Counted from the stretch's first letter, positions 6,900-58,700 are shown. The stretch: 64,000 nucleotides of DNA from Yuukianura sp. NJ FZ-2021 (GCA_046563655.1 CM102287.1:2418001-2482000), one strand, 5' to 3'. The notes: generated by a model not told the origin, from the sequence alone. Numbers and translations: made by a program.

Positions 6900-7070
6900 A
6901 AATCACCACAAACTCCCTTCAAAAGAATACTTTTGAACAAAATCTATCGAAAGACACTCTTTTAACACACCTTTTATTTCATTACTCATGTGATTAAAAA
7001 AACATCAAAATTTAAGTAAACAATTTTTTCAAGAATGAGAAGAGTTCTTGTTTTGTGTCGCTTATGAAAT

Positions 7071-8007
7071 TTAGAAAGTGGAGTGGAGAAAGTAGAAAAT
7101 GGAGAAAAATGTTTTGTGGAAAAGTAACTTTTTGGCGGTGTTTCTGAATTTGCGTTGTGGATTTGAGATTCTGTGGATTGGGTCCACGCCCCGAGTGCAC
7201 AATGCTGCTCCGTCGCCATTCTGCAAACGTGCAGTCTGATTGCACTTCCCACTCGCACATCTCTGGTCTTGATGGTCATCGTCTGGGTCAATGTAGTTCT
7301 TGGCGTCACGAGTGAAGTTCCGGAAGTACTCGGTCACGAAGGCTTCAAATGGACGCTTCTCCATGTCCGTCGCGTACTTGGAAGCCATGAGGCTCATCAA
7401 TTCACCAATCTCTTCGTTCACGACGCTCGATCCAGAGGACGCATTCTGCACAATCTGCTCCAGTCGATCCACTTCTGGCTTAAAGTCAACGTCATAATTA
7501 AATGCACGGCTGCAAATCAAAAGGCAACGTCAGACGTCAACAAAAGCCAAAGGAGTTCGTCAACACGTCAAACGTCAACAAAATATGCTGCTTACGTGCG
7601 CTGAGTGCACACCACATTGTGTCTCACTAAACACGTCTTCGCAATTGCATAGCCCAGAAAGTCAACTTGAATGGCCACTTTGTCGTTGCAGAAACACGTC
7701 CCGTGGCCGCCTTTGTAGACGCACTCCAGCATCAGCTGTTTAGAGTCGCATACGCTGTCTGCGTTCAAACAATTTCCAAATTTTGCATTATTTGATCCAA
7801 TTGAACCATTTTGGATCAAATTGCGAAAAATTTTGAAAAGTGAAAACATTTTTGAGACTCACATCCCTCGCAGTTCTGTCCAAGGCCGCGTTTCACAACA
7901 TAGCGACTCTTGGGGGTCGTTTCCATTTCACCTTCATCTTGACCTGCTCCAGGCGTCACACGACTCACCCACAACACAAAAACTAACCAAGTTCTCAAAA
8001 AAGTCAT
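7071..8007 (-). CDS. Secreted Cys-rich protein with hydrophobic C-tail, copy A (exons 8007-7863, 7758-7596, 7509-7071)
   Basis: Signal-like MTFLRTWLVFVLWVSR, Cys module LGQNCEGYSVCDSKQLMLECVYKGGHGTCFCND..CLVRHNVVC, tail FFSIFYFLHSTF*. Splice sites are conserved across the three copies. Confidence 0.75.
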
Positions 8008-8544
8008 GACCTTTGACCTTCCGCTGCGAACAACCATATTCTTTGCACAATCACTGAAAAATGTCAAATGGACTTGTTAGTTTACGAGTTACTTGCAAAG
8101 TTAATCAAAACTCAGTAATCGTAGCAACAGTTTTTGACATGAAAATTTTTGTCCCGTTCAAGAAAAAAAATGTGGCGGAATTTGTTCAATCAAAAAATTT
8201 TCCCTGGAATGCTCACTCAATTGTTGCTGCGTAGGAACAACTTTACACAAATCACAAATTTTTGTTACATTTTTACAAATTGACAAATTCAAAAAAATTT
8301 AGTTAAAAAGTGTGGTTTTCAGTTGTGTCGTCTCCCGCCCTGTCCGCCTGCCTACTACGAATGTCCTCACAAATCAACATCAACTTGTGGCTCCTACTAA
8401 AAATCACCACAAACTCCCTTCAAAAGAATACTTTTGAACAAAGTCTATGGAAAGACAACAACACAAGTTTTATTTCATAATTCATGTGATTAAAAAAAGG
8501 AGTTTTTAAAAATTTTAGTCCTTGTTCTTTGTCGCTTATGAAAT

Positions 8545-9592
8545 TTAGAAAGTATGGCGGAGAAAGTAGAAAATGAGGAAAAGTGTTTTGTGGAAAAGTA
8601 ATTTTTTGGCGGTGTTTCTGAACTTGCGTTGTGGATTTGAGATTCTGTGGATTGGGTCCACGCCCCGAGTGCACAATGCTCCTTGGTTTATGCCATCCTG
8701 CATAAGTGCAGTCTGGTTGCACTTCCCACTGGCACATCTCTTGTCCAAATCATTCTTGCTTGTGTCGCTGATGTAGTTCTTGGCGTCACGACTGAAGTTC
8801 CGGAAGTACTCGGTCACGAACGTTTCAAATGGACGCTTCTCCATGTCCGTCGCGTACTTGGACGCCATGAGACTCATCAGTTCACCAATCTCTTCGTTCA
8901 CGACACTCGATCCCGACGACGCATTCTGCACAATCTGCTCCAGTCGATCCACTTCTGGCTTAAAGTCAACGTCATAGTTCAGTTCATGCCTACACAGCAA
9001 AAGGGAACACGTCAAACATCAACAAAAGGCAAAGGAGTCCGTCAAAACGTCAACAAAAGGCAAATGAATCCGTCAAAACGTCAAGCAAAGGTAAAGGAAT
9101 CCGTCAAAACGTGAGACGTCAACCAAAGGAGTCCGTCAAAACGTGAGACGTCAACCAAAGGAGTCCGTCAAAACGTCAAACGTCAACAAATTATCATGCT
9201 TACTCGCGCTGATTGCACACCACATTGTGTCTCACTAAACACGTCTTCCCAATAGCATAGCCCAGAAAGTCAACTTGAATGGCGATTTTGTCGTTGCAGA
9301 AACACGTCCCATGTCCGCCTTTGTACACACACGTCATCATCAGCTGACGGGAGTTGCAAAGGCTGTCTGCGTTCAAACAATTTATAAATTTTGACATTTT
9401 GGATCAAATTGCCAAAATTTTGAAAAGTGATTGTATTTTTGACTCACATCCCTCGCAGCTCTGTCCGAGGCCGTTTTTCAAAACATATCGATCCTTGGGG
9501 GTTGTTTGGATTTCAGGTTCATCTGGACCTGCTCCAGGGGTTACACGACTCACCCACAACACAACAACTAACCAACCTCTCAAAAAAGTCAT
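8545..9592 (-). CDS. Secreted Cys-rich protein, copy B
   Basis: Paralogue of copy A with the same three-exon structure and open frames (ORFs 9404-9592, 9200-9397, 8545-9015). Confidence 0.75.
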
Positions 9593-10232
9593 AACCTCTG
9601 ACTTTCCACTGCACTGCGAACAACCATATTTTATGCACTACTTAAAAATGTCAAACATGGAATTTTTGTTTTTTCTTCCCGTTTTACTTAAAAAGTTTAT
9701 CAAAACCAAGGTAACTAAACATAAATACACACGAGCTTTCTAAGGTAGTCTCACGAGCGGTTTTTTAATAAAAATTCGTGCAAAGGTTGGTTGAGGTAAC
9801 AATGATATCAAAACCTAGTAACAGTAGCAACAATTTTTCCCGTTAAAATTTTGTCCCTGAAAAAAAATGTGGCGGAATGCTCACTCAATTGTTGCTGCGT
9901 ACGAAAAACTTTACACAAATTAACAAATTTTTGTAACATTTTTACAAATTTACAATTTCATAGAAATTTAGTAGTTAAAAAGTGTGATTTTCAGTTGTGT
10001 CGCCTCTCACGTCTCACCTTGTCCGCCTGCCTACTACGAATGTTCTCACAAATCAACATCAACTTGTGCCTCCTGCTAAAAATCACCACAAAATCCCTTC
10101 AAAAGAATACTTTTGAACAAAGTCTATCGAAATACGACACTTTGAACACAACTGTTATTTCATTATTCATGTGATTAAAAAAAGAGTTGTAAAAAATTGA
10201 AAAGAGTCCTTGTTTTGTGTCACTTATGAAAT

Positions 10233-11377
10233 TTAGAAAGTGGAGTGGAGAAAGTAGAAAATGGAGAAAAGTGTTTTGTGGAAAAGTAACTTTTTGGCGG
10301 TGTTTCTGAATTTGCGTTGTGGATTTGAGATTCTGTGGATTGGGTCCACACCCCGAGTGCACAATGCTGCTCCGTCGCCATTCTGCAAACGTGCAGTCTG
10401 ATTGCACTTCCCACTCGCACATCTCTGGTCCTGATGGTCATCGTCTGGGTCAATGTACTTCTTGGCGTCACGAGTGAAGTTCCGGAAGTACTCGGTCACG
10501 AAGGCTTCAAATGGACGCTTCTCCATGTCCGTCGCGTACTTGGAAGCCATGAGGCTCATCAATTCACCAATCTCTTCGTTCACGACGCTCGATCCAGAGG
10601 ACGCATTCTGCACAATCTGCTCCAGTCGATCCACTTCGGGCTTAAAGTCAACGTCATAGTTCAGTTCGTTCCTACACAGCAAAAGGGAACACGTCAAGCG
10701 TCAACAAGAGGCAGACAAATCCGTCAAAACGTCATACATCAACAAAAGGCAAAGGAGTCCGTCAAAACGTGAAATGTCAACCAAAGGAATCCGTCAACAC
10801 GGCTAACGTCAATAAAAGGCAAATAAATCCGTCAACACGTCAAGCGTCAACAAAAGGCAAAAGAAATCCGTCAAAACGTCAACAAAGTGCAAAGGAATTC
10901 GTCAACACGTCAAACGTCAACAAAAATCCAAACGTCAAACGTCAAGAAAAGGGAACACGCCAAGCGTGAAGAAACTGTGAAATTTACTTGCGTCGATTGC
11001 ACTCCACATTGTGTCTGATCAAGCACGTCTTCCCAATTGCGTAGCCCAGAAAGTCAACTTGAATGGCCAATTTGTCGTTGCAGAAACACGTCCCATGTCC
11101 GCCTTTGTACACACACGTCATCATCATCTGTGTAGAGTCGCACATGCTGTCTGCCTTCAAACAATTTATAAATTTTGACAATTTGGATCAAATTGCGAAA
11201 AATTTTGAAAAGTGATTGTATTTTTGACTCACATCCCTCGCAGTTCTGTCCAAGGCCGCGTTTCTCAACATAGCGATCCTTGGGGGTTGTTTCGATTTCA
11301 CCTTCATCTTGACCAGCTCCAGGGCTCACACGACTCACCCACAACACAAAAAAGAAACAAGCTCTCAAAAAGGTCAT
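10233..11377 (-). CDS. Secreted Cys-rich protein, copy C
   Basis: Paralogue of copies A and B with the same exon structure (ORFs 11054-11416, 10984-11181, 10233-10697). Confidence 0.75.
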
Positions 11378-36819: not shown

Positions 36820-37087
36820 AACCTGGATTTTTCAGAGATTGACTTGACTTTTTCATAGTGTTAGAATATTTGAGTTTTTTAAATACTTCCAACCACTTTT
36901 TTACAATGAAAACGTCAATTAAACGAAGGGGAGAGTCATATTCAGTTGCGTCTGTTCATAATTTTGGAATCATTTTGATTTGGACTATGAATTCAGTTTT
37001 GGTAGTATTTTGGGAAGCCGAATCGGTTTAAAAAAAGTTTTTCGAAACAATTCACAGGATCAAAGTTCAACTTAAAACAAAAAAACG

Positions 37088-38085
37088 GACGCCACATGAA
37101 AAATTAAAAAATTCAGGTGGGGATGAATATACATGCAGCATAGAGACTGGAAGATTTTAAATTTCAAATGGCCTCTTAACTAAACAGCAAAAAATTCCAT
37201 AAAAAAAATTTTTTTTTTTGTATTTACAAAATTTTTTCAAAAATCGGTGAGTTGTGTTTTGGTTTTAACTTAAATTTTCCTCATAAATTCCTCCCCTTTT
37301 AAAATTTGGAATTGTGTTAATTTAATACTTAAAACTTAAGTACAAAGTAGCGTATTGGAATTCGGAATTATTGTTGTAATATGCAATTCGTGGTGCAGAA
37401 CATCACAAATTCAAATTGGTTCAAATTCGTTTTCTAACAACATCTCGCAATCAGAATTTAATTTTTTCTTGAAATTCAAAAAATTTTGAAGAATTTAACA
37501 TTTAATAAATATTTGAGATCATTATGAATTGAGTAGCGAAGAGATCTCCTGTCTAACGCATTTAATTCCGGAGTTACGAATTTTCAAAGTTTTTAAAATT
37601 TTGAAGTGAGATTTGTGAGTGTTTTCCATTGGGAAGCTTCGCGAGAGCGAAAAAATTGACAGGGTATCATACGAGACAGAGAGGCGAGATAGGGCTCTTG
37701 GTCTCCTTTGCTTTTTGTATGGGAGATTGAGTGGCGGCAAAAAGGATAGGATAGGAAAGGGAGTGTAGCCTTCGTGCTTCTTATAATCTCCTGTCAACTT
37801 TTCCTCTCTTCTGCCTATCTCCCCATGTTAAACTTCAGTTCAAAATCAGAGAGGGTGACAAGGGTGTTGTGCAGTAACTGCTACTCCAACCACATAAATT
37901 ATTCGGGTGACATTGGATTGTGGCAGTAGCTGCTACATGAACCACATAAATTATTTCAAAAAATAATTCCCACAATTTTCCCGCCACTAAATCACGTGAG
38001 TTGTATTTTGAAATTAATCAGCTGTTTTTCATTTAACTTTAATTTTCATTAAGTTACTTCGATCTTTAATCAATTACTAATTGGC
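37088..38085 (-). mobile_element. ~1-kb dispersed non-coding repeat, copy 1 (family unassigned)
   Basis: Reverse complement of 46270-47263 and 58105-~58700. Shared core GTTGACAGGAGATTATAAGAAGCACGAAGGCTACAC and an internal ~50-bp duplication. Confidence 0.8.
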
Positions 38086-38333
38086 TCCTGGAGTTTTTGA
38101 TCAGTATATTATGCGAACAGAGGCTGTCTCATTTCCTCACAGCGTCAGGGTTGCCATGGGGAAGCGTAAAAGGCTGGAAGTTTGGAGAGTCGTTTCGTTA
38201 TTTGTTTTGACATTCTTTCGGCGTTTTTCTCGAATGCGCTACAGGAGTTCCTGGATTCAATTCGACCTTTGATCAATCGTTGGAGTCGTTCTGCTGAAGC
38301 TTCCATCGTCTTGCTCCGACCACAGTATTTGAA

Positions 38334-41300
38334 ATGGGGAAGAAAGGTGGTGATTCGGGTGAAAAACCGAAGAAATCCAAGTCTAAGGAAAAGAAGTCCG
38401 AGAAAGAAGGAAAGTCCAAAGAAGACAAGGATCCAAAACGAACAAAATCCAAAGGTGACAAGGATCCAAAACGAACCAAGTCTAAAGATGACAAGGAAAC
38501 GAAACGAACCAAGTCCAAGTCTAAAGATGACAAGGAGCCGAAACGAAGTAAGTCCAAGGACAAGAAAGGGAAGGACAAGAAGAAGAAGGGCCGCGGGAAG
38601 TCCAAGGACAAAATGGCTCAAGATGGCGGCCGAGGAAGCAAAGGCGACCTTGGATTTGAAGTGAAGCTGGACCCTTACGCGCCTTACCCAACGGAAGAGG
38701 ACTTGAAACGTTTTGGTCCTCTGAGTGTCGAAGCAAAACAGGCTCACACGGCCATTGTTCTTCTGGACAGTGAAGAGAAGCATGTAAGTTTATAATTTCT
38801 ATCACAGTAGTCTTAAATCTAAGTTCAAAGTTCAAAGAAACGTTTTTTCTTGGTCCGCAGGTTATCATTGAATCGTTGAATTCACTCCAGCGCTTCTGCA
38901 TCAAACGAAATGAAAATCGCGAAATCTTTGTCGTTCTGAACGGAGTCAGTAAAATCTGGAAGTTTTTTCACGATGCAGACACAATCATTCAGCGTCTTGC
39001 ACTCAAAATCCTTGCAATCATCTCCTCTCTCCAGAAAGTCAGAGTTCTCTGCCGGGATTACAAGGTACAGTTGACCTTCTGGATTAAACTAAAGTTGAAA
39101 TTTTTTGAATCTTGTAATCTAAAACATCTTTTGATTAGTTTGCTGAAGAAATCGGGAAGTTGGGACAATCCGAAGACCAAGTTGTGCTGGAGTACTTCAC
39201 TGGCATTGTGTGTAATCTGGCCACCTTGTTCACCGGTCGAATTCAGCTGATCCGAAATGGAGCTGTTCCGTTTCTGGTGACGATGTTGGGGCATTATGAT
39301 GCAGACATCCAGCGAAACGCTATCGACGGTCTGCTGAATATACTGGAGGAACCACTACATGTTCATCTCTTTCTCAATCCCGAAACAGTTCAGATGGTTT
39401 ACAACCTCATTGAGTCGGAGCATCCTGAAATTCAGAGCAGTGCGCTCTCCGTTCTGGAAAGATTGAGTCGTTATCCGCCGGAAGGAGTCCAATTGGTCCA
39501 GAACACTGGCATAATCCACAGCATGGGTTCAGTAAGTTACTAAAAGTTAAGTTAAGCTCTGTTTCAAAACTGTTTTAACTAATTGACCTTTTTATTAAAG
39601 AAACTGAGCGACCCAACGTTCGGCGACCTTCATCGCATCTACCTCAAGATTCTGGTGAATGTGACCCAAGATGTGTCCAATTGCAAGAAGTTGGCTCCAC
39701 TGTTGGGTCAGCTCGTGACACTGCTGGATCACTCCAGAGATGTCCAAGTTCTCCATCGCACACTTTTGCTTCTCGGACGCATGGCAAGGATCCCCTTGAT
39801 TACTCAAGCGCTCGTCGGTCTCTATGTAACAACAAACTTTCAAAATCGTTTTTAATACGTTCGTAGTTTTAACTTTTTTTCTATAGTTTTCATTTTACTT
39901 TTTGCAGGAGATCGTTCCTAAGCTTGTCTTCATCGTTTCCAAATACGCAAACATTGAACTTCGATCTGTTGCCACTTACACTTCAGCTCAAATCGCAGCT
40001 ACTGACTACAAAGCCAAAGCAGAACTGACAGAGGTAGGCCAAAGAAAAAGATGCGTCTTAAAAACTAAGAGTTTTTCTTTGTTTTAATAATGAAAACTAC
40101 AATCCTGTTTTTCCTTAGATTTTCAAACCGATGAAAGCCTTGTTCTTCGACGTGCGTGCATCATCAGCTTGTTTTGAAAACGTGTTGATGGCAACGACTG
40201 TTTTGTTAGAGCACGGAGACGAGTCTCAGGCCAAGTTTCTGTCCTCCGGTGGTCTGTCCATCCTCTACAACGTCTGTGCCACTGACCCCAAGGACACAAA
40301 GTTCAGTTACCACACAAGCATCTCGGCTCTGACGTGTGTCGCCATGCTGGGTCACCGAGAAGACTTCAGGAAAGCCATGATTGACCAACACCTTCTTCCG
40401 GCTGTTCTCCTCCAAATGACTTCTTGGAGTGCTCAGGTTGTCACCCTGGCTGCAACAGCACTCGCTCCTCTTCTCTGTAGCCAAGAAGGGCGAAACCAAT
40501 TCCTGGAACACGGCGGATACAACTACATAGCAACTGCTGCCAAAAACCCTGATCTCAACGTTGTCATTGGAATTATTCCACTCATCAGTGTAAAATTCAA
40601 CTTTTCAAAGAATCAGAAGGAAAATGCATAGTTCTGGTTTAATTTTTATTTTGGTTTTGTTTACAGGGAATTGCAACTTATACGGATATCGCTAGTCACA
40701 TGGTAAACAATGGATTGCTGAATATCCTCTGGGAACGTCAGGATCTTCTTGGAATCAACGGTCCACTGCGAGTGGCCTTGGATCGACTAATTTCTAGTCA
40801 TCTTCCAGCAAAATACGCTTATAAAGGACACATCGGACCCTACGAAAAGCTTACGCATGAATTCTACGATGCTGGAATCCTCCAGACAGACAAAGTCTTC
40901 ACCCCTTTGGAGTCGATCAAGTTTGAAGATAGAGCAAATCACAAGAAAATCATCTATGTCAACTTTGACGACGTCTGCAGTCCAAACCTTGTGGAAGAAA
41001 ACGTAATTTTAAGAACTAAAAACGTTATAAAATTCAATTCTTTTCGTCACTAATTACATGATTTCTGTTTGTATTAGCCCATTTTGCGGTCGCTGGGAAG
41101 TCCAGGAGTTGTGTCGATCATTCAAATTGCCAACGAAGTGCGAGACATGATTCCAGATAACGTGAGAACCGAGAAGGACCTGGTTGGTTTGCTTGCGACT
41201 GTTGTTTGTGCTAGACTCGGTGGACAACTGGACAAGTGGCGGGTGAGTGTGGAGGCAGAGGAAATGGAATTGGCCAACTTCCAGAGCAAGCACAAATCGG

Positions 41301-41702
41301 TTGTGGTTCCCCTGACTTGCATGACGACTGGAGCTCATCGTCCTCGCGCTCTCATGTTCAAAGCTTTAGCCGACATCTTTGGAATTCCTTGCTCCTTGGA
41401 TCGTGGTGGATTCAGAAAGTGCTGGAACGTCGTCCTCATCCGTGCCAAGAGAGCACACGTAAGCATTTCGTATTGGTTCAGTTAGAAATCCTAAAAAAAA
41501 CAAGAACAGAGGAGTGAGTTGTTGATTAATTGTGTTTATTGTTTTGTCGTAGGCTGTCTGTCCCTGTGCAGAGACACCGGAAGAGGAACAGGGCTTGTTT
41601 TTCACAGAACGACTGCGTCGCTTTGTCGTTGACCTTCTGTATGCTCCAGGAACGTTGTTTCCACTCTACTCTTACGAAGCAGATACTTACTGCTTCTGCT
41701 AA
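38334..41702 (+). CDS. ARMC3: Armadillo-repeat protein with C-terminal EDR1-like domain (ARMC3-like)
   Basis: Lys-rich N-terminus, ARM-like helical repeats (LIRNGAVPFLVTML.., FLSSGGLSIL..), and C-terminal RPRALMFKALADIFGIPCSLDRG..WNVV...FVVDLLYAPGTL. Confidence 0.75.
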
Positions 41703-42103
41703 ATAAACGACTATAAAACTGAATAAAACGTTTGAAGACAAGCAAAGTGACATCCTAATCACTGTATACATCGTTTAACTGATGAGGATTAATTAATTGA
41801 TGAAGAATCGTAAGGAGTTAAACGATTAAAGTAACCCATAATAACTTGGAGATATCTATAGCTTTCTCCCATAGTTAACTATGGACTTTCACCCTGTTTT
41901 CAGTTTACGTGATACCATACAGCCGAAGCAATGCAAAATCGCATATGGGCATCGAAAGTATTTTTTAAATTACTTAAGGTGAATGATTATTAAATTTAAT
42001 TTAAGTTAATTAATTAGTGATCAGCGTGTTGTCACTTGGACAGTCTAAAATGACAACGTTGACGAAATTCTTATTCTGATTCTTAATGTAAAAACAGAAA
42101 TAG

Positions 42104-42535
42104 TTATTGGGAATCCATAAACTGAATGTCCGAAAGGAGAAGAAGTAACTTGGGGAGTGGTCCGGGTGACGGCGATAGAACAGTCATGCGTCCCTTTTCC
42201 ACGTCAATGTCCGTCACACAGACGTAACCAGCAACATTCTTCCGGATTACGTCTTCGTCAGCAGCAGAAGCGAAACTTATTGCGAGCAGTTTATGCAGCA
42301 ACTGCTGAGTCGTCGGTGTTACTGGGACTAACTTTGTTCGGGATTCGTCCACTTTCATGCCCAGTGGGAGACAAGATGATGGAACAGCTGGACTTCCGAT
42401 TTTGTAGATTACTTCGGAAAGTTTCACTTGGAACGAATGTGGATGCAGAACTTGCCCACCGATCCGTCCATAAAAATAAGTTCGGATTCGACTGTCCCGG
42501 CTCCCCGCTCGGAACGTTTTGCTTCTCTCCACAAC
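42104..42535 (-). pseudogene. CLP1: CLP1 (RNA 5'-OH kinase / cleavage factor) C-terminal exon only
   Basis: VVERSKTFR..RDSRIRTYFYG..LHPHSF..IYKIGSPAVPSSCLPLGM...KLVPVTP...NVAGYVCVTDIDVE...TVLSPSPGPLP...DIQFMD* matches the CLP1 C-terminus. Preceded by TTCCAG acceptor. No N-terminal or P-loop exons seen in the window. Confidence 0.85.
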
Positions 42536-42568
42536 CTGGAATTTAGTGCCATAGTTTATCGCTTATCT

Positions 42569-45500
42569 TACCTTGTCGTGGGTACCCATTCCGCGGTAGC
42601 TTTAAGCGGTTAGCACTGTCTGCGCGGTTCTAAACTCTTTTTTGAGAAAAACCCAATGGTGGCCACGCACTTCAAAACAAAATTTTCTAATTTTTAAGAA
42701 AGGTACCCCAAAGGGGTACCTTGTCGTGGGTATCCATTCCGCGGTAGGTTTAAGCGGTTAGCACTGTCTCCGCGGTTCTAAACTCAAAAAAAAACAAGTT
42801 TTTTTTTGAGAAAAACAATGATGGCCACGCCCTTCAAAATAAAATTTTTAATTTTTACACAAGGTACCCCAAAGGGGTACCTTGTCGTGGGTACCCATTC
42901 CGCGGTAAGTTTAAGCGGTTAACAATTTCTCCGCGGTTATAAACTCCAAAAAAACATGATGGTTTTTGAGAAAAACCCAATGGTGGCCACGCCCTTCTAG
43001 ACAAAATTTTCAAATTTTTAACAAAGGTACCCCAAAGGGGTACCTTGACGTGGGTACCCATTCCGCGGTAGGTTTAAGCGGTTAGCACTGTCTCCGCGGT
43101 TGTAAACTCCAAAAAAACAAGTAATTTTTTTAGAAAAACCCAATGGTGGCCACGCCCTTCTTGACAAAATTTTCCAATTTTTACACAAGGTACCCCAAAG
43201 GGGTACCTTGTCGTGGGTACCCATTCCGCGGTAGGTTTAAGCGGTTAACATTTTCTCCGCGGTTATAAACTCCAAAAAAACATGATGGTTTTTGAGAAAA
43301 ACCAAGAACTGGCCACGCCCTTCAAAACAAAATTTTCAAATTTTTACACAAGGTACCCCAAAGGGGTACCTTGTCGTGGGTACCCATTCCGCGGTAGCTT
43401 TAAGCGGTTAGCACTGTCTCCGCGGTTCTAAACTCAAAAAAAACAAGTTTTTTTTTGAGAAAAACCCAATGATGGCCACGCACTTCAAAACAAAATTTTC
43501 AAATTTTTACACAAGGTACCCCTTTGGGGTACCTTGTGTAAAAATTTGAAAATTTTGTTTTGAAGGGCGTGGCCAGTTCTTGGTTTTTCTCAAAAACCAT
43601 CATGTTTTTTTGGAGTTTACAACCGCGGAGACAGTGCTAACCGCTTAAACCTACCGCGGAATGGGTACCCACGTCAAGGTACCCCATTGGGGTACCTTTG
43701 TTAAAAATTTGAAAATTTTGTCAAGAAGGGCGTGGCCACCATTGGGTTTTTCTCAAAAAACATCATGTTTTTTTGGAGTTTATAACCGCGGAGAAATTGT
43801 CACCCGTTTAAACCTACCGCGGAATGGGTACCCACGACAAGGTACCCCTTTGGGGTACCTTTCTTAAAAATTAGAAAATTTTGTCTAGAAGGGCGTGGCC
43901 ACCATTGGGTTTTTCTCAAAAACCATCATGTTTTTTTGGAGTTTATAACCGCGGAGAAATTGTTAACCGCTTAAACCTACCGCGGAATGGGTACCCACGA
44001 CAAGGTACCCCTTTGGGGTACCTTGTGTAAAAATTAAAAAATTTTATTTTGAAGGGCGTGGCCATCATTGGGTTTTTCTCAAAAAATTACTCGTTTTTTT
44101 GAGTTTAGAACCGCGGAGACAGTGCTAACCGCTTAAAGCTACCGCGGAATGGGTACCCACGACAAGGTACCCCTTTGGGGTACCTTGTGTAAAAATTTGA
44201 AAATTTTGTTTTGAAGGGCGTGGCCAGTTCTTGGTTTTTCTCAAAAACCATCATGTTTTTTTGGAGTTTATAACCGCGGAGAAATTGTTAACCGCTTAAA
44301 CCTACCGCGGAATGGGTACCCACGACAAGGTACCCCTTTGGGGTACCTTGTGTAAAAATTAAAAAATTTTATTTTGAAGGGCGTGGCCATCATTGGGTTT
44401 TTCTCAAAAAATTACTTTATTTTTTGGAGTTTATAACCGCGGAGACAGTGCTAACCGCTTAAACCTACCGCGGAATGGGTACCCACGTCAAGGTACCCCA
44501 TTGGGGTACCTTTGTTAAAAATTTGAAAATTTTGTCTAGAAGGGCGTGGCCACCATTGGGTTTTTCTCAAAAAACATCATGTTTTTTTGGAGTTTATAAC
44601 CGCGGAGAAATTGTCACCCGTTTAAACCTACCGCGGAATGGGTACCCACGACAAGGTACCCCTTTGGGGTACCTTTCTTAAAAATTAGAAAATTTTGTCT
44701 AGAAGGGCGTGGCCACCATTGGGTTTTTCTCAAAAAATTACTTTATTTTTTGGAGTTTATAACCGCGGAGAAATTGTTAACCGCTTAAACCTACCGCGGA
44801 ATGGGTACCCACGACAAGGTACCCCTTTGGGGTACCTTGTGTAAAAATTAAAAAATTTTATTTTGAAGGGCGTGGCCATCATTGGGTTTTTCTCAAAAAA
44901 AAACTTGTTTTTTTTTAGTTTAGAACCGCGGAGACAGTGCTAACCGCTTAAAGCTACCGCGGAATGGGTACCCACGACAAGGTACCCCTTTGGGGTACCT
45001 TGTGTAAAAATTTGAAAATTTTGTTTTGAAGGGCGTGGCCAGTTCTTGGTTTTTCTCAAAAACCATCATGTTTTTTTGGAGTTTATAACCGCGGAGAAAT
45101 TGTTAACCGCTTAAACCTACCGCGGAATGGGTACCCACGACAAGGTACCCCTTTGGGGTACCTTGTGTAAAAATTAAAAAATTTTGTCTAGAAGGGCGTG
45201 GCCACCATTGGGTTTTTCTCAAAAACCATCATGTTTTTTTGGAGTTTATAACCGCGGAGAAATTGTTAACCGCTTAAACCTACCGCGGAATGGGTACCCA
45301 CGACAAGGTACCCCTTTGGGGTACCTTTCTTAAAAATTAGAAAATTTTGTTTTGAAGTGCGTGGCCACCATTGGGTTTTTCTCAAAAAAAAACTTGTTTT
45401 TTTTTGAGTTTAGAACCGCGGAGACAGTGCTAACCGCTTAAAGCTACCGCGGAATGGGTACCCACGACAAGGTACCCCTTTGGGGTACCTTGTGTAAAAA

Positions 45501-45647
45501 TTAAAAAATTTTATTTTGAAGGGCGTGGCCATCATTGGGTTTTTCTAAAAAAAAAACTCGTTTTTTTTTAGTTTAGAACCGCGGAGACAGTGCTAACCGC
45601 TTAAAGCTACCGCGGAATGGGTACCCACGACAAGGTACCCCTTTGGG
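42569..45647. repeat. 163-bp tandem satellite, ~6 units in one orientation then ~13 inverted, switch at ~43524
   Basis: GGGGTACC recurs about every 163 bp. ORF-track offsets are 163 (42855/43018) and 814 (43661/44475). Strand flips at TACACAAGGTACCCCTTTGGGGTACCTTGTGTA. Confidence 0.95.
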
Positions 45648-46269
45648 AATAAATTCTTATGAATTATTCATAAGAATTTATTTCCTTTAGTTTATATTAT
45701 TCATGTCTGAGTTAATGCCACTTTTATTAAAATTAAATAACACCAACTTCATTCACTCATAACAACTTGAATTATACTAATATACAATTTATTAATTTTA
45801 TCATCCTATACAAATCTAGTCACATATGGTTTTCTGGAGTTTCTTATTTTAATACAATTCAAATCTCAATAGTTCTTAATTTGAGTTATAGTCTTTATTT
45901 AATTTTACTCGAAAGTCAACGTAATTCCAAATTCATATTTCACTTTGATTTAGTTTAATCCGATTAAATCTGTTCTTACTAAAATTAAGCACATTCAATT
46001 TCATTCAAATAATTCAATTTTCTTTTACTTTATTCAATTTTATTCAGATAATTCAATTTTATTTTATTTTAATCAATTTTATTTCATTTTAATTAATTTC
46101 ATTTGCTAAATTAATTGAAACTCAGTTTTGTTTAATTTAATTAATTTTATTTGCCCATTTCTGCATTTGCGTCAGTTCCCCGCTGCTGGTACGGCGCCTC
46201 TGGTAAATTAAACTTTTTTGACTATGCAAATTAGGAGAAAGCTATAGTTATCTTCAAATGGACACCCAT

Positions 46270-47263
46270 ATTAAAGTAATTGATTACTAAAAAGCAACTG
46301 ATTAATTTGAAAACAAGAGTCACGTGATCCAGTGGCGGGAAAATGGAGAGAATAATTTTTTGAAATAATTTATTTGGTTTATGTAGCAGCTACTGGCACA
46401 ATCCAGTGTCACCCGAATAATTTGTGTGGTTGTAGTAGCAGTTACTGCACAGCACCCTTGTCACCCTTTCTGATTTTGAACTGAACTTTAACATTGGAGG
46501 ATAGGCAGAAGAGAGGAAAAGTTGACAGGAGATTATAAGAAGCACGAAGGCTACACTCCCTTTCCTATCCTATCCCTTTCCCGGCACTTGCCTTCCCATA
46601 CAAAAAGCAAAGGAGACCAAACGCCCTACTCGCCTCTCTGCCTCGTACGATCCCCTCTCAACTTTTCTGCTCTCTCGCCTATCTCCCCATGCAAAAGACT
46701 CTTTCAAAACTTGAACTTGGAGGTCACGATCATTTCCACAGCTAGTACAACTCACGAATCAACTCCAGCCATAGTACTCCGCCACCATATCTCTTGCAAC
46801 TATCCTTTCACTTAATTTGGCACAAAAAATTGCAAATAACGTTCAAAATTTTGTGAAATTTTGAAAAATAAAGCTTATGCATCATATTTTCATATTTCCT
46901 AGATTTTAGTTTGAAAATTCAATGCAGCTAACATGAAGCTGATACCTGCTTTAGCTAATTATGTTGATGTTGTTAGAAAACGAATTTGAACCAACAATGT
47001 TTTGCATCACGAATTGCGTATTACATAATTCCAAATTTCACTACGTTACGAAATTGCACTTAGGTTTTGTGTATTTGACTAACACAATTCCAAATTTAAA
47101 TCACCGTTCTTTGAAAAAAAAATTGAAAAAAAAACATCAGAAAAAAATTATTTTTTGATGGAAATTCTTTCTGTTTTGCTAGAAGCCATTTGAAATTAAA
47201 AATATTCCAGGCCCCTTCTTCCGTATTCACCATATCAGAATTATTTAATTTTTCATCCGGCGT
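46270..47263 (+). mobile_element. ~1-kb dispersed repeat, copy 2 (its first ~45 bp lie at ~41790-41834, split off by the insertion)
   Basis: Homologous to copies 1 and 3. GGAGTTAAACGATTAAAGTAA at 41814-41834 continues at 46270. Confidence 0.8.
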
Positions 47264-47657
47264 TGAAGTTAGCTCAAATTTCAGTTGACCTCGATGTCCA
47301 ACACTCAGTTTCTAAACTCTAAAATTCTGAAAATTCTAAATTCTAAGATTCCTAAAATCGAGGAGTGTATGGCTTCAACAGTAACACGAGATTTCAGTTT
47401 ATTCAAAACAACTTCCATTTTTTTTTAGACTTTTACACATAATTTCTTGTTATTCAGAATAACTTGAAAAAAATTACATAAGGGATATCTTTACTTTCTG
47501 TTTAGGATTTTTGTCTTTAGTCAAAGGTCAAGAGAAGTACTGTCGTCATTGCTTTGGTTTCAAACAACCTTGTGCTACAAAACAACGGGAGCAGACACCG
47601 GGGAAACCAATCAAACGCTGAACCTGATATGCTGATTGTCACACCTTTAGAAGAATC

Positions 47658-47877
47658 GGGTGGAGTAAGGCAGAGCAAGTACGGCTTAATCCTGCGTATC
47701 CACTCCAGTATCCACTCCAATTATAGAAGAACCTACGTTGCCACTGCAGCGTCAACCTAACCAAACCTAACCTATTCATCTATATCTAACATTGCAGCAT
47801 TGCGTCGGCAACAATTGGAGTAGATACCGGAGTGGATACGAGACTATAGGCCGTACTTGCTCTGCCTTACTCCTGCC
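47658..47877. mobile_element. 220-bp MITE with ~65-bp imperfect TIRs and 8-bp TSD GAAGAATC
   Basis: TSD at 47650-47657 and 47878-47885. Ends GGGTGGAGTAAGGCAGAGCAAGTACGGC / GCCGTACTTGCTCTGCCTTACTCCTGCC. AACCTAACC motifs in the centre. Confidence 0.85.
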
Positions 47878-47920
47878 GAAGAATCAGCTTTTTAGGAACG
47901 TGATTGGCTGATTGAAGTTG

Positions 47921-50611
47921 TCATTTCTTGTTTCCAGCTTCTGCGAGTGGTTTGTGTGACTCTGGATCTCCGTCGCTGGAAATAGAATTCCCCGATCTTT
48001 GTTTCCCACCACGACGCCTTCTGTTTCCAGTCCCACCAGAACTTGACCCTTGACCTCCTTTGTCTGGAATGTTGTTCTCACTGTTCCCACCTTGACCGCG
48101 AGGAGTCTTCCCTGGCTTCACTTTCGTCCCAGCAGCAGCCACGCCCGTGAAAGGAATCAGCTTCGTGATGTTCCCCACCGCTTTCGTTCGGCCTTCACGA
48201 AACACCTATAGATCAAAAGTCAGGTCAAAACTGTAAAGTTTTCAAACGCATCTTCATAAAAGTTTTAGAAATTGTGAAATATGGTTACTATTCTTGTTCC
48301 GGTATTTAGATATTCGGGATGCTTCATGAAGCGAAAGTGTACTCCAGCCTTGTCACCAGTCCTCAGACACTCTTGAGACATTGAGATGATGCTGGCCGTC
48401 TGTCGAATACTTCCGCAGTGCACTGGAAAAGAAATCAGAAACATCTCACAATTATTACTCCGATACTTGGCAAATGTGCTGCGGAAGTATTCGTGTTATT
48501 TGAATTTGAATTTTATTTGACCAAATACCCATTGCTTGGTAGCGAGTACTGATGGTGGTGGGATGATGAAGCACAAGTATTTCTCCCTCAAACTCCCAGC
48601 AGGCAGTTGGATTCAATGCTGGCGAAACCAGGACCATTCCCTTCCGGATTTGAGATCTTTTTATCTAAGAAGAAACGCAAACATTAACATTTATTTTTGC
48701 TTAAACTTCAATAAGATTTCTATAATTACAATATTAACTTACTTTTTTGAGTGAGAATGACGCTGTTTGACCTCCAATGACCCTGGTGACGGGCATTCTC
48801 TTTCTGTGAATTGATTTAATTGCGATTGGATTAAAATGACCAGTAGGATCAGGTCCCAGCAGAAGCACATCGTTCAGGTTAATCGTTCCTCGCAGACAGG
48901 TTCCACTTACGACCGTTCCAACTCCTGCAATTTCAACACATCAAATTAGTTTTCAAAAAAAAAACTTTAAAAAAAGAAAGTTGAAGTTTTTTAAAAACTT
49001 CAGAGTCGCTCACCCGGAACGGAGTAAGTTTCATCAATCTGGAACTCTGCAGGATCATCTTGGAGGGAAGGATTGCGTACACTTAGAAGATTAAGAAACA
49101 TCGTCAGGAGTTGCAGATTTTCTCCAGTGACGTTGCTCACTTGGAACACTGGACACAGTCTAAAACATCAAAATTTGATCTCAACTTGTTCAAAATATTT
49201 TGAAAAGTGAAATTACACTTTGAAAAATCAAAGTTTACCTCTCAGACACAAAATTAGTTGCACTAAGGACTACATCGTCTGCTGTCTTGACTATTACTGG
49301 TACTTTGCGACAACCGGGGGACTTGAGAATCTTGATGAGGAGTTGCAGTGTTTCCTGAAGGACGTTTGGAGGACACATGTCAATCTTTGTCACAACTACA
49401 AACACAGGGACGCTAAGTGCCAGAGCAAGTCCTGAAACAACAATCATAATTTTTTATAACTTTTCAAACATTTTTGACTAAAAGGAGTTAAAATTTTAAA
49501 TGTCAACGTTTTTTTTCTACTAACCCAAGTGCTCCTTGGTCATTCCAACAATTCCAGCATTGGATCCGATCTGTAACAAGTAAATTCAAAAAATTGTCAT
49601 CATTTTCAAAAAATCGAAACGAAATGAATGTTTTTGAATTTCAATTTAGAAATTAACCATTAGCATTCCATAATGGGGAGCGTGTCCCGTCATCCCAAAC
49701 ACGGTTGTCTTTAGATATCGTTCGTGACCTGCGAGGTCAATGAACGTTATGACTTTGGACGATTTTTCACAAATATGCGTCCAATCCAAAGAACCATGCT
49801 CTGCCTTGTTCACAACTCCGCCTGATCATCGCAAATTGTAAAATTAGCACAGCGAAAGTTCTAAAACTATTAATTTTTTTTAGTAAAGTGTGTTTTTCTT
49901 CGTACCTTGATGATCGAATCCCAGAATGTCATTGCCAACAGACGATGTCCGACCGGATTCCATTTCGTGCTTATGACGAAAAAGCTTCTGCCTGGCAAAT
50001 CCTCTGCCGTTATCCAAAATTCCATGAGTCAGAACTCCAAGGAGGGTGGATTTACCAGCATCAACATTTCCAACAACAGCAACTCTAAACAAAATCAAAA
50101 ATTATCAAAAATTATACTTTCATTTCTGAAATTTCGAAATAGAGAACATGAGTTTTTACCTGATTTCGGCAAAATCTCGTTCTGGAGCAATTTGTCGTAT
50201 GAGATACTGGGCGTAAATGCTGCTCTCGTGTTCTTTCTTCTCCCGCAACTGGACACAAGATGCTCCGATGGAACTGGCCACTGATTGCAGAGTTGCAACT
50301 GAAGCGTCGAAATCTTCCTGTGACAGCCCCGTGCTTCCTTCGCAGTGATCTCCAACGTTAAAAATAGTTTCTCCATTGCCATCTTTTATGCTTTGCTTGA
50401 TCCTTGAAACTAGAAATTCATACTCTTCTTCATTGGGACTCACCAAACATATCTGCAATTACAAAATTCAACATTAGAGTGTACAGAATTGATAAATTGA
50501 AGACCAATTCAATTAAAAACCAACCTTTCCCGCTCCGTCAGCTTCTCCATTTGTGGCCGGCTTCGCTTCTTTCTTCGGTGAGTCCAGTTGCGAATCAAGA
50601 ACAGCCGCCAT
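47921..50611 (-). CDS. GTPBP1: GTP-binding protein 1 (translational GTPase)
   Basis: [75 protein letters not shown] and [10 protein letters not shown]. Confidence 0.95.
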
Positions 50612-57610: not shown

Positions 57611-58104
57611 ACGCCAGATTTAGAGTTCACTCTCACTTTATCATCATCGTTTCTCGTCCTTGAATCAGCGAAAGTTGAAACTTTAACTTTCATTGAAGTT
57701 AAAATCATGAATCGTGATTGAGTAGTTTCAGAATTTATTCTGGAAAAGTGAAAATTTAAGCTGACCTTAGAATGTGCTGGATTAGCATTGTAATTAATTC
57801 TGTTTCAATTCTTGATGTTAAGGTGGGAGAGTGAACTCTATCTCTGGATGTAAGAGGAAACGGAACTAGGAAGGGAAAATGGAAGGTTAAAATCGGAGTG
57901 ATCAGTGACCCAATTTAAATGTAATATGTACACTATAATCTAAAATTGCGAATGAATCTAATTAACTGAATGAGTACTAGATTGTCAATACTTTACAAAC
58001 AGGAAGTGGCACATAAGTTAGGAGTAAATGAGCTGTACAATGTGAATACTTCTTTTCCTTGATTAAAATTAATTAATACTTACGCAAATAAACTGTCGAA
58101 TTCA

Positions 58105-58700
58105 ATTAATTGCTGCAAAATGGAGGAGTTAAACGATTAAAGTAATTAATTACTGAAAAAACAACTGATTAATTTTAAAACATGAGTCACGTAAGCCAGT
58201 AATGGCGGGAAAATGGAGGGAATTATTTTTTGAAATAATTTATTTGGTTTGTGTAGGAGCTACTCGCCCAATCCAATGTCACCCGAATAATTTGTGTGGT
58301 TGTAGTAGCAGTTACTGCACAGCCCCCTTGTCACCCTCTCTCATTTTGAACTGAACTTTAACATGGGGAGATAGGCAGAAGACAGGAAAAGTTGACAGGA
58401 GATTATAAGAAGCACGAAGGCTACACACCCTCCTGCCCCTATTCCTTTCCCCGCACTTCCCTTCCTTATTACAAAAAGGAGGGAACAAAAATGGCCCTAT
58501 CTCGCCTCTCTGCTTCGTATGATCCCCTATCAACTTTTTCTCTCTCGCGAAGCTTCCCAATACAAAACACTCACAGATCTCACTTCAAAATTTTAAAAAC
58601 TTTGGAATTTCCTAACTCAGGAATTAAATGTGTTAGACAAGAGATCTCTTCGCCAATCAATTCATAATAATCTCACAAATTTTTGAAAATGTTAATTGTT
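58105..58700 (+). mobile_element. Dispersed repeat, copy 3 (uninterrupted at the insertion site)
   Basis: Homologous to copies 1 and 2; contains a single ATTAAAGTAA at 58136-58145. Confidence 0.8.

What the first reader, a model, noticed from the sequence alone, without database searches (positions are those of the whole stretch)
41825..46279. Gene-capturing transposon with 9-10 bp TSD and subterminal IRs carrying a CLP1 exon
Seen: a 4.4-kb block is flanked by ATTAAAGTAA on both sides and interrupts a dispersed repeat. Another copy of that repeat (58125-58160) has the 10-mer once, giving an empty-site control. About 11-12 nt inside each end lie 24-bp inverted repeats (TTGGAGATATCTATAGCTTTCTCC / GGAGAAAGCTATAGTTATCTTCAA). 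The cargo is the CLP1 terminal exon, a satellite and AT-rich DNA, with no transposase. Known: Mutator-like elements make 9-11 bp TSDs and Pack-MULEs capture gene fragments in plants; Zisupton-type elements have subterminal IRs with 8-bp TSDs. Inference: this is a Pack-type non-autonomous element in an arthropod, of uncertain superfamily.
Basis: partly seen in the sequence, partly recalled or inferred. Interest (0 to 1): 0.85.

Follow-up and report, generated by a model that had tools for sequence, protein, structure and literature searches.

The report
Polymorphic gene-carrying transposon insertion, springtail-like genome
A 4.4-kb piece of DNA carrying the last exon of the CLP1 gene has inserted into a common repeat and looks like a transposase-less Mutator/Foldback-type transposon, a kind of gene-carrying element that is common in plants but rarely reported in animals.

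Summary
A 4435-bp block (41835-46269) is flanked by the 10-mer ATTAAAGTAA on both sides. It splits one copy of a roughly 480-bp dispersed repeat, and a second copy at 58100-58572 carries the 10-mer once.

Public contigs add an empty site at this same locus. One contig joins the unique left flank to the right flank without the block, in two independent studies.

The two 24-bp inverted repeats match at 22 of 24 positions and sit 11 and 12 nt from the tips. Weaker inverted similarity extends about 150 bp inwards. The left 143 bp recurs in other contigs with different interiors.

The cargo is:
- an orphan CLP1 3' exon with 35-45 bp of intron;
- 163-bp satellite arrays in head-to-head orientation;
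- an AT-rich stretch with a minisatellite.

There is no transposase.

Best reading (confidence 0.6): a young, polymorphic, non-autonomous DNA transposon of Mutator/Foldback type with subterminal inverted repeats, that is, a Pack-type element. The superfamily remains unproven, because I found no autonomous partner and did not see paired ends recur. Whether the exon was captured before or after insertion is also open.

Precedents exist (Ssk-FB4 in Drosophila, Tm1 in nematodes), so this is a new member of a known kind.

The parts
41825..41834 (.). left copy of the target site duplication, ATTAAAGTAA
   Evidence: present once in the empty copy at 58136-58145 and once in the empty-site contigs
41835..41977 (+). 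left end module, 143 bp: an 11-nt tip (CCCATAATAAC), the 24-bp inverted repeat 41846-41869, and a perfect 16-bp palindrome 41869-41884
   Evidence: In one search, contigs of X1 (2) and X3 (3) match up to 41977 and then continue with unlike letters; at 41896, 3-4 separate contigs per run carry another base
41978..42106 (-). CLP1 3' flank (27% G+C), including the stop codon 42104-42106
   Evidence: contiguous with the exon; contig X1 record 5 (41935-42133, 0 differences) crosses the boundary between module and flank
42107..42535 (-). CLP1 terminal exon, 143 codons, open to the natural stop
   Evidence: Pfam PF06807, E 6.9e-35; 72% identical to residues 293-436 of the 436-aa P0001, and 68% to the Allacma fusca CLP1
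42536..42580 (-). intron remnant with the acceptor ttccag, and the junction to the satellite
   Evidence: read; X3 record 22 is identical over 42408-42570 and then continues for 284 letters unlike the window
42581..43524 (+). 163-bp satellite array, forward orientation (TRF: 42638-43537, 5.5 units, 88% matches)
43526..45650 (-). the same 163-bp satellite, inverted (TRF: 43511-45647, 13.1 units). The arms meet head to head with 3 nt between them
   Evidence: (I7: arms 42947-43522 and 43526-44101, 89% complementary)
45651..46125 (.). AT-rich stretch (20% G+C) with a 38-bp palindrome at 45648-45685 and a 20/39-bp minisatellite at 45993-46104
   Evidence: contigs with 0 differences in X1 and X3 and 1 difference in X2 (records 7, 14, 23)
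46126..46269 (-). right end module, 144 bp: the 24-bp inverted repeat 46234-46257 and a 12-nt tip (ATGGACACCCAT)
   Evidence: X2 record 15 spans 46126-46261 with 0 differences
46270..46279 (.). right copy of the target site duplication
46270..46701 (+). host dispersed repeat, copy A, right part (the left part is 41788-41834)
   Evidence: 87% identical to 58136-58572 and to 38029-37617; summed contig depth about 15000 against about 230 in the flank in X1
58100..58572 (+). host repeat, copy B, uninterrupted: the empty-site control

Best explanation
The block is a young insertion of a non-autonomous cut-and-paste DNA transposon. It is still polymorphic.

Structure. The ends are degenerate inverted repeats of about 145-160 bp. 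Their conserved core is a near-palindromic 24-mer set 11-12 nt in from the tips.

Inferred mechanism. A transposase supplied in trans binds the subterminal cores and cuts at the tips. It integrates at a 9-10-nt staggered break, and repair of that break duplicated ATTAAAGTAA. Duplication length, subterminal repeats with asymmetric tips, inverted tandem arrays inside the element and a minisatellite next to one end together point to the Mutator/Foldback group (Phantom, Tm1, FB4 or Rehavkus-like).

Cargo. About 590 bp comes from the 3' end of the CLP1 gene (3' flank, last exon, 35-45 bp of intron). It was probably copied in by template switching or gap repair, which makes this a Pack-type element.

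Shown: the insertion, the duplication, the empty sites, the repeat architecture, the orphan exon and the recurrence of the left end module. Inferred: the transposase family, mobilisation in trans, and how and when the exon was acquired.
For: 1. The 10-bp duplication is exact, and an uninterrupted paralogous repeat copy lies in the window.

2. There is an empty site at this locus. A contig (X2 record 11, 350 nt) runs 41559-41809 with 12 differences in 251 nt, then 14 letters that stand in for 41810-41824, then 46270 onwards. The same joint appears in X1 (depth 162), X2 (203) and X4 (22.6), and X4 belongs to a different study. Three further joint variants (41812, 41824 or 41833 joined to 46270 or 46289) carry a single 10-mer.

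3. The inverted repeat matches 22 of 24. The inverted similarity beyond it scores 40, against a mean of 22-23 in controls. It was reached by 0 of 300 shuffles, 0 of 1500 random window segments aligned to the left end, and 3 of 1500 aligned to the right end.

4. The left module recurs. Loose ends behind 41977 in X1 (2 contigs) and X3 (3 contigs) have differing continuations, and another lies behind 41883. At 41896, 3-4 contigs per run carry another base, including 4 in X4.

5. Contigs identical to the cargo have higher depth than the flank contigs. In X1, 565 (41935-42133) and 700 (42408-42597, which spans the exon-satellite junction) compare with 104-228. This is only a weak hint, because the tool warns that depth is not copy number.

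6. The CLP1 exon is an orphan: tblastn with four full-length homologues found no other CLP1 exon in 64 kb. It keeps an intron acceptor and has no poly(A), so it is a genomic copy.

7. Literature:
- MULE duplications are 8-11 bp (PMC6446971, passages read).
- Tm1 has asymmetric 7-bp tips outside its inverted repeats and 8-10 bp duplications. Subterminal repeats are also noted there for Phantom and Jittery (PMC3169594, passages and Discussion part 1 read).
- Ssk-FB4 in Drosophila has 9-10 bp duplications and is called a Pack-MULE (PMC8277862, abstract and sections 7 and 9 read).
- Rehavkus has a 9-bp duplication and a minisatellite before the 3' repeat (PMC6446971). Here a minisatellite at 45993-46104 lies just inside the right module.
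Against: - No transposase lies in the block or anywhere in the window (0 of 115 ORFs of 88 aa or more). The superfamily therefore rests on structure alone.
- The strongly conserved inverted repeat is only 24 bp and is not terminal. The tips are a direct repeat (CCCAT, or ACCCATA with neighbouring bases), not an inverted one, and I have no explanation for that.
- I never saw the two ends recur as a pair with another duplication. No genome is held, and only 32 of about 1300 contig pieces and 24 of 271 loose ends were listed.
- No listed contig bridges either filled junction, so those junctions rest on the window's assembly.
- The right AT-rich part has about flank-level depth in X3 (60.7 against 56) and lower in X2 (92 against about 200-240). 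The whole element may therefore be single-copy, which would favour in-situ gap filling as the origin of the cargo. Tan et al. found that route for most single-copy animal Pack-TIRs (PMC8277862).
- X2 record 15 stops 8 nt short of the right tip, so the last 8 nt may not be shared by other copies.
Confidence: 0.6

Rival explanations
1. The transposon ends are genuine, but the cargo was acquired in place. An ordinary non-autonomous element inserted here and made the 10-bp duplication. A later break inside it was repaired by copying from the CLP1 locus and from a satellite array (transposition-independent gap filling). On this reading the chimera never moved.
For: Tan et al. report that single-copy animal Pack-TIRs arise mostly this way, and that only 4 of their Pack-TIRs were multicopy (PMC8277862, abstract and section 7). 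The right AT-rich part of the block has about flank-level contig depth in X3 (60.7 against 56). Other copies of the left module carry other interiors.
Against: The contig across the exon-satellite junction (42408-42597, 0 differences) has depth 700 in X1, against 104-228 for the flank contigs. That hints at more than one copy of the chimeric junction, but depth is a poor measure of copy number. No intermediate allele with the ends but without the cargo was seen among the listed joints.
Confidence: 0.2
2. This is not a transposon. A segment copied from elsewhere, for example the CLP1 neighbourhood including a nearby small inverted-repeat element, was captured at a staggered double-strand break. 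Alternatively it was inserted as linear or circular extrachromosomal DNA, and fill-in produced the 10-bp duplication.
For: There is no transposase. The inverted repeats are not at the tips. The tips carry a 5-7-nt direct repeat, which could be a microhomology or circle-junction trace. The interior is a patchwork of gene fragment, satellite and AT-rich DNA.
Against: The inverted similarity of the two ends is placed symmetrically: 143-144-bp modules, with cores at 11 and 12 nt from the tips. Other copies diverge from the left module exactly at 41977, as expected of a shared terminal module. A clean 10-bp duplication with no filler or deletion at the target is typical of transposase-type integration; that last point is general knowledge.
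Confidence: 0.12
3. The block or its junctions are an assembly artefact, for example a chimeric join or a fold-back read that produced the inverted satellite arrays.
For: No listed contig bridges 41834/41835 or 46269/46270. Four of the 30 depth bins inside the satellite have no or almost no cover in several runs. The head-to-head satellite arms resemble a fold-back artefact.
Against: An artefact would not create an exact 10-bp duplication of the target inside a repeat. Independent contigs with 0 differences cover 41935-42133, 42045-42233, 42408-42597 and 45618-46222 in X1-X3. The satellite arms are only 89-95% complementary, not identical.
Confidence: 0.04
4. It is a retro-copy, or a transduction mediated by a non-LTR retrotransposon, of a CLP1 read-through transcript. 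Such events give duplications of variable length, including 10 bp.
For: Duplications made by target-primed reverse transcription vary in length and favour AT-rich targets (recalled). The CLP1 sense strand ends near the left tip.
Against: There is no poly(A) or simple-repeat tail at the 3' end (41835-41845). No reverse transcriptase is present. An intron remnant with its acceptor is retained. The end modules are inverted repeats of each other.
Confidence: 0.03

Closest known systems
Ssk-FB4 of Drosophila melanogaster (Foldback FB4 carrying the Ssk gene; Tan et al. 2021, PMC8277862, sections 7 and 9 read)
   Same: It is a non-autonomous arthropod element with 9-10 bp duplications (TACATATATG, AAATTAAAC and CATGTAGCG are reported). 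It has inverted arrays of tandem repeats, carries host gene sequence, is polymorphic in populations, and its transposase is unknown.
   Different: FB4 has terminal inverted repeats of about 700 bp built of tandem repeats that run from the ends. Here the satellite arrays are internal, and cargo separates them from the 143-144-bp end modules. Ssk was captured almost whole; here only the last exon is present. Three Ssk-FB4 loci with distinct duplications are documented; here a second locus has not been shown.
Tm1, a Mutator/Foldback family of root-knot nematodes (Gross and Williamson 2011, PMC3169594)
   Same: Its duplications are 8-10 bp, mostly 9. It has short asymmetric motifs at the tips, outside the inverted repeats (subterminal repeats). 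Non-autonomous members carry a host-like motif (a histone hairpin).
   Different: Tm1 tips are 7 bp, against 11-12 nt here. Tm1 repeats are built of 14-bp tandem units. An autonomous Tm1-A with a Phantom-type MULE transposase is known, whereas no partner is known here. I tested no sequence similarity, because no Tm1 sequence was on hand.
Rehavkus (a Mutator-related group in arthropods and annelids; described in Repbase and summarised in Dupeyron et al. 2019, PMC6446971, Table 1 and section 8 passages)
   Same: It has a 9-bp duplication, inverted repeats of 26-400 bp, a minisatellite just before the 3' repeat, and arthropod hosts.
   Different: Rehavkus is defined by a transposase with a PHD finger, and none is present here. 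Here the duplication reads as 10 bp, or 9 if one base is coincidental.
Plant Pack-MULEs
   Same: They have TIR ends, a 9-10 bp duplication, an internal host gene fragment that includes intron sequence, and no transposase.
   Different: They occur in plants, in thousands of copies, with long and well-conserved TIRs and known autonomous MULEs. Tan et al. found no Pack-MULE in 100 animal reference genomes (PMC8277862, section 7).

Membership tests
Mutator / MULE superfamily (including Foldback FB4, Phantom/Tm1, Rehavkus) | Target site duplication of 8-11 bp | tested here: met
   The duplication is 10 bp (9 is possible): ATTAAAGTAA on both sides and once in the empty sites. The range is taken from PMC6446971.
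Mutator / MULE superfamily (including Foldback FB4, Phantom/Tm1, Rehavkus) | Long terminal, or in some families subterminal, inverted repeats | tested here: inconclusive
   The 24-bp core matches 22 of 24 and lies 11-12 nt from the tips. Weak inverted similarity extends to about 150 bp, reached by 0 of 300 shuffles and by 0 and 3 of 1500 real-sequence controls. The repeats are degenerate, and the tips themselves are not inverted.
Mutator / MULE superfamily (including Foldback FB4, Phantom/Tm1, Rehavkus) | An autonomous relative that encodes a MULE-type DDE transposase between the same ends | not testable with these tools
   No genome is held. No transposase was found in the window (0 of 115 ORFs). 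The metagenome scan with the repeat core gave 4 matches, all judged to be chance.
Pack-type (Pack-TIR / Pack-MULE) element | TIR ends and a duplication enclose non-transposon host gene sequence, with no transposase | tested here: met
   The CLP1 exon, with intron acceptor and 3' flank, lies between the end modules. No other ORF of 88 aa or more lies in the block.
Pack-type (Pack-TIR / Pack-MULE) element | A parent gene exists elsewhere in the same genome | tested here: inconclusive
   The rest of CLP1 is absent from the window. X3 record 22 is identical over 42408-42570 and then continues unlike the window, as a parent intron would. The parent locus itself was not seen.
Pack-type (Pack-TIR / Pack-MULE) element | The same chimera occurs at several loci with distinct duplications (capture followed by transposition) | tested here: inconclusive
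   The only evidence is contig depth: 565-700 against 104-228 in X1, but about 1x for the right part in X3. No second locus was seen.
Foldback elements | Long inverted repeats built of tandem subrepeats that run in from the termini | tested here: not met
   Inverted 163-bp arrays are present (5.5 and 13.1 units). They lie internally, about 750 bp and about 620 bp from the tips, with unrelated sequence between them and the end modules. The architecture resembles a Foldback with insertions, but the arrays are not terminal.
   The duplication is 10 bp, or at least 9.
Helitron | No target duplication, insertion at A/T, 5'-TC and 3'-CTRR ends with a 3' hairpin (recalled) | tested here: not met
   A 10-bp duplication is present, and the ends read CCCAT...CCCAT.
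Processed retro-copy / LINE-mediated insertion | Introns absent, a 3' poly(A) or LINE tail, and a duplication of variable length (recalled) | tested here: not met
   The intron acceptor and 35-45 bp of intron are retained, and the 3' end has no A-rich tail.

The most novel reading that the evidence does not exclude
An active Pack-MULE/Foldback-type family in a springtail-like hexapod has captured the CLP1 C-terminal exon and is moving the chimera to new loci. This would be the first such case in a reference-type animal assembly outside the Drosophila Ssk-FB4 example. The end architecture is unusual: asymmetric 11-12-nt tips with a short direct repeat outside a near-palindromic binding core. 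That could mark a new Mutator-related lineage. The intact 143-codon CLP1 domain might also be expressed as a new chimeric protein.
Probability: 0.2. Interest if true: 0.65.

Novelty: new member of a known kind. Interest (0 to 1): 0.45.

Why it matters
Capture of host gene fragments by DNA transposons is a major source of new gene structures in plants, but it is scarcely documented in animals. A survey of 100 animal reference genomes found no Pack-TIR in insects and no Pack-MULE at all. Its one Mutator-type case, Ssk-FB4, came from fly population data (PMC8277862, sections 7 and 9).

Here there is a second arthropod example. It is still polymorphic, both filled and empty alleles are available, and the exon is intact. 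That gives a tractable case for asking three questions: how capture happens (breakpoints at about 41977 and about 42570), which transposase moves elements with subterminal repeats, and whether captured exons become expressed. If it proves to be single-copy, it instead adds a case to the gap-filling route.

Tried and rejected
- Whole-genome search with the ends: not possible, because no genome is held.
- Earlier findings of this scan by place, by sequence (left end, satellite, host repeat) and by words: nothing on record.
- Metagenome scan with the 21-nt degenerate repeat core: 4 loci. Three are 49% G+C contigs that share only the 20-nt match. One match lies inside a helicase-like ORF. I judged all four to be chance, so no relatives were found.
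- Rfam scan of 37000-48000 at E up to 1: 15 matches, all below their gathering scores. Fourteen are hairpin matches at the satellite inversion centre, and none is a hammerhead or other ribozyme, tRNA or SINE-type RNA. I therefore dropped the idea that the satellite is a ribozyme-bearing retrozyme or Penelope-type repeat.
- Telomere-unit search in the window: one imperfect hit at 47756-47770, outside the block.
- The 14-mer core hit at 20989 (2 mismatches) has no further similarity.
- RNA evidence: no RNA holder was listed among the public runs, so expression could not be examined.
- Parts of the satellite (44244-44711 and 44946-45179) had no cover in some runs. I draw nothing from that.
- The Phantom paper (PMC2927773) is not held. 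What I say about Phantom comes from the Tm1 paper.
- An alternative nested model, with a 7-bp duplication ACCCATA flanking an inner element: rejected. It still needs a second event to explain the 10-mer duplication, and it does not bring the inverted repeats to the tips.

Full report
**What is there.** The 10-mer ATTAAAGTAA occurs at 41825-41834 and again at 46270-46279. The 4435 bp between the two copies (41835-46269) interrupt a dispersed repeat. The repeat has three copies in the window:
- copy A, split into 41788-41834 and 46270-46701;
- copy B, 58100-58572, uninterrupted, with the 10-mer once at 58136-58145;
- copy C, 38029-37617 on the minus strand, which lacks the leftmost part.

The bases next to the two 10-mers differ, so the duplication is 10 bp. 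It would be 9 bp if one element base matches the target by coincidence.

**Empty site at the same locus.** No genome is held for this window, so I used public runs. Five runs hold the region: four from one sample (X1-X3, X5) and one from another study (X4). All are kept as contigs, and I laid X1-X4 on 40500-47500.

- One contig, X2 record 11 (350 nt), matches 41559-41809 with 12 differences in 251 nt. It then has 14 letters in place of 41810-41824 and continues at 46270.
- The same joint is present in X1 (depth 162), X2 (203) and X4 (22.6).
- The stretch 41559-41684 has flank-level depth and no second match in the window. I therefore take this as the same locus, or a very close paralogue, without the block and with a single 10-mer.
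- The runs carry two sequence versions of the left flank that differ by about 4-5%. The version identical to the window is present in X1 (record 3, 0 differences, depth 104).
- Three further joint variants from other copies of the host repeat also carry a single 10-mer.

None of the 32 listed contig pieces (about 1300 in all) bridges a filled junction. The two filled junctions rest on the window's assembly.

**The ends.** The inverted repeats 41846-41869 and 46234-46257 match at 22 of 24 positions. They lie 11 and 12 nt inside the tips.

- The core is itself near-palindromic: 18 of 22 self-complementary on the left and 16 of 22 on the right. A perfect 16-bp palindrome (41869-41884) follows the left core.
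- Beyond the core the two ends still align in inverted orientation over about 120 nt, with a local score of 40. Shuffles gave a mean of 22.8 (SD 4.2), and 0 of 300 reached 40. Random real window segments reached it 0 of 1500 times against the left end and 3 of 1500 against the right end.
- The ends are therefore degenerate inverted repeats of about 145-160 bp.
- The contigs agree with that size. Two contigs in X1 and three in X3 match the window up to 41977, 143 nt from the tip, and then continue with different letters. On the right, X2 record 15 starts at 46126, 144 nt from the tip.
- At 41896, 3-4 separate contigs per run carry another base, including 4 contigs in X4.

The left end module is thus a repeated family with varied interiors, and it is present in both studies.

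**The cargo.**
- 42107-42535 (minus strand) is the CLP1 C-terminal domain: Pfam PF06807, E 6.9e-35.
- It aligns to residues 293-436 of a 436-aa homologue at 72% identity and to the springtail Allacma fusca CLP1 at 68%.
- It is open over all 143 codons and ends at the natural stop.
- An acceptor (ttccag) and 35-45 bp of intron precede it, and about 130 bp of 3' flank follow it. It is therefore a genomic copy and not a retro-copy.
- tblastn with four full-length CLP1 proteins found no other CLP1 exon in the 64 kb.
- X3 record 22 is identical to 42408-42570 and then continues for 284 letters unlike the window. That fits a parent CLP1 intron and places the capture breakpoint near 42570.
- Next come 5.5 units of a 163-bp satellite, then 13.1 units of the same satellite inverted, meeting head to head with 3 nt between the arms.
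- Last is an AT-rich stretch (20% G+C) with a 20/39-bp minisatellite at 45993-46104, just inside the right end module.
- No ORF of 88 aa or more in the block hits anything but CLP1. None of the 115 such ORFs in the window hits a transposase family.

**Genomic context.** The insertion lies between the 3' ends of two convergent genes. One is ARMC3-like on the plus strand, with Pfam Arm and EDR1/CTR1/ARMC3 peptidase-like hits. The other I read as GTPBP1-like on the minus strand, from the peptides; it had no Pfam hit.

**Interpretation.** A non-autonomous cut-and-paste DNA transposon is the best fit for four features together:
- an exact 9-10 bp duplication of the target;
- symmetric end modules with a conserved subterminal core;
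- a left end module that recurs with other interiors;
- an empty allele.

Among known superfamilies, the duplication length points to Mutator and its relatives: 8-11 bp according to PMC6446971.

It has a published precedent in that group. Tm1 of root-knot nematodes has asymmetric 7-bp motifs outside its inverted repeats and 8-10 bp duplications, and its authors note subterminal repeats in Phantom and Jittery too (PMC3169594, Discussion). Rehavkus, found in arthropods and annelids, has a 9-bp duplication and a minisatellite just before the 3' repeat (PMC6446971), as seen here. The inverted tandem arrays recall Foldback elements, but here they are internal and not terminal, so I do not file the element as a Foldback.

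Membership in the Mutator superfamily is a structural inference only. The defining transposase could not be looked for.

**How the exon got there.** Tan et al. (PMC8277862) describe two routes for animal Pack-TIRs. One is in-situ gap filling, the usual route for single-copy cases. The other is template switching followed by transposition, seen in multicopy cases such as Ssk-FB4, which has 9-10 bp duplications.

The evidence here is mixed. Contigs identical to the cargo have higher depth than flank contigs in X1 (565-700 against 104-228) and X2 (496-850 against about 200-240), including one across the exon-satellite junction. The right part of the block, however, is at about flank level in X3 and below it in X2, and the tool warns that contig depth is no copy number. 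I leave this open and favour capture before transposition only slightly.

**Unexplained.**
- Both tips read CCCAT on the same strand, or ACCCATA with one neighbouring base on each side.
- Another copy of the left module abuts CCTAA-type repeats about 58 nt from its tip. I recall these as the arthropod telomere unit.
- Contigs identical to the exon break at 42410 and 42460 with unlike letters.
- X2 record 15 stops 8 nt short of the right tip, so those 8 nt may differ in other copies.

**Novelty and score.** Gene-carrying TIR elements are known in animals: 370 Pack-TIRs in 100 genomes. That survey found none in insect reference genomes and no Pack-MULE in any reference genome. Its one Mutator-type case came from fly population data (PMC8277862, sections 7 and 9).

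My literature searches on springtail Mutator elements and on Pack-MULEs in insects listed nothing for springtails (listings only). I did not search the literature for this specific element beyond those listings.

This is a new member of a known kind. It is real, young and polymorphic, and moderately interesting to transposon biologists. Interest 0.45.

Noticed in passing
window 37089-38029 (minus) and 46289-47263 (plus): Host-repeat copies C and A extend to inverted partners of about 1 kb (75-87% identity). They bracket the ARMC3-like gene and the insertion, so the gene sits between inverted repeats.
   Followed up: partly
window 41883 (left end module), contigs of X1 and X2: Another copy of the left end module has 10 extra letters, then the same 10 letters as the window, then CCTAA-type repeats. 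I recall these as the arthropod telomere unit. They start about 58 nt from the tip.
   Followed up: no
window 7000-7600, 8400-9100 and 10100-10800 (minus strand): There are three tandem copies of a gene-like unit whose ORFs share a long, nearly identical peptide. Two of the three have only a weak DUF6047 hit below the cut-off, and the third has no Pfam hit.
   Followed up: no
window 42410 and 42460, contigs of X2: Contigs identical to the CLP1 exon break off at these two places into unlike sequence. By eye the breaks are not GT-AG intron borders. They may be other rearranged copies of the exon.
   Followed up: no
window 44518, 42937 and 45573 joined to 47110-47139 (joints and table 5c): In the runs, satellite units elsewhere in the genome abut a sequence like 47110-47139, which is part of the repeat right of the insertion. 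The 163-bp satellite therefore also exists outside this block.
   Followed up: no
window 47688-47847: This is a long imperfect inverted repeat (gtatccactcc... and its complement) around a CCTAACC-like centre, just downstream of the GTPBP1-like gene. Its only Rfam match is a sub-threshold hairpin.
   Followed up: no
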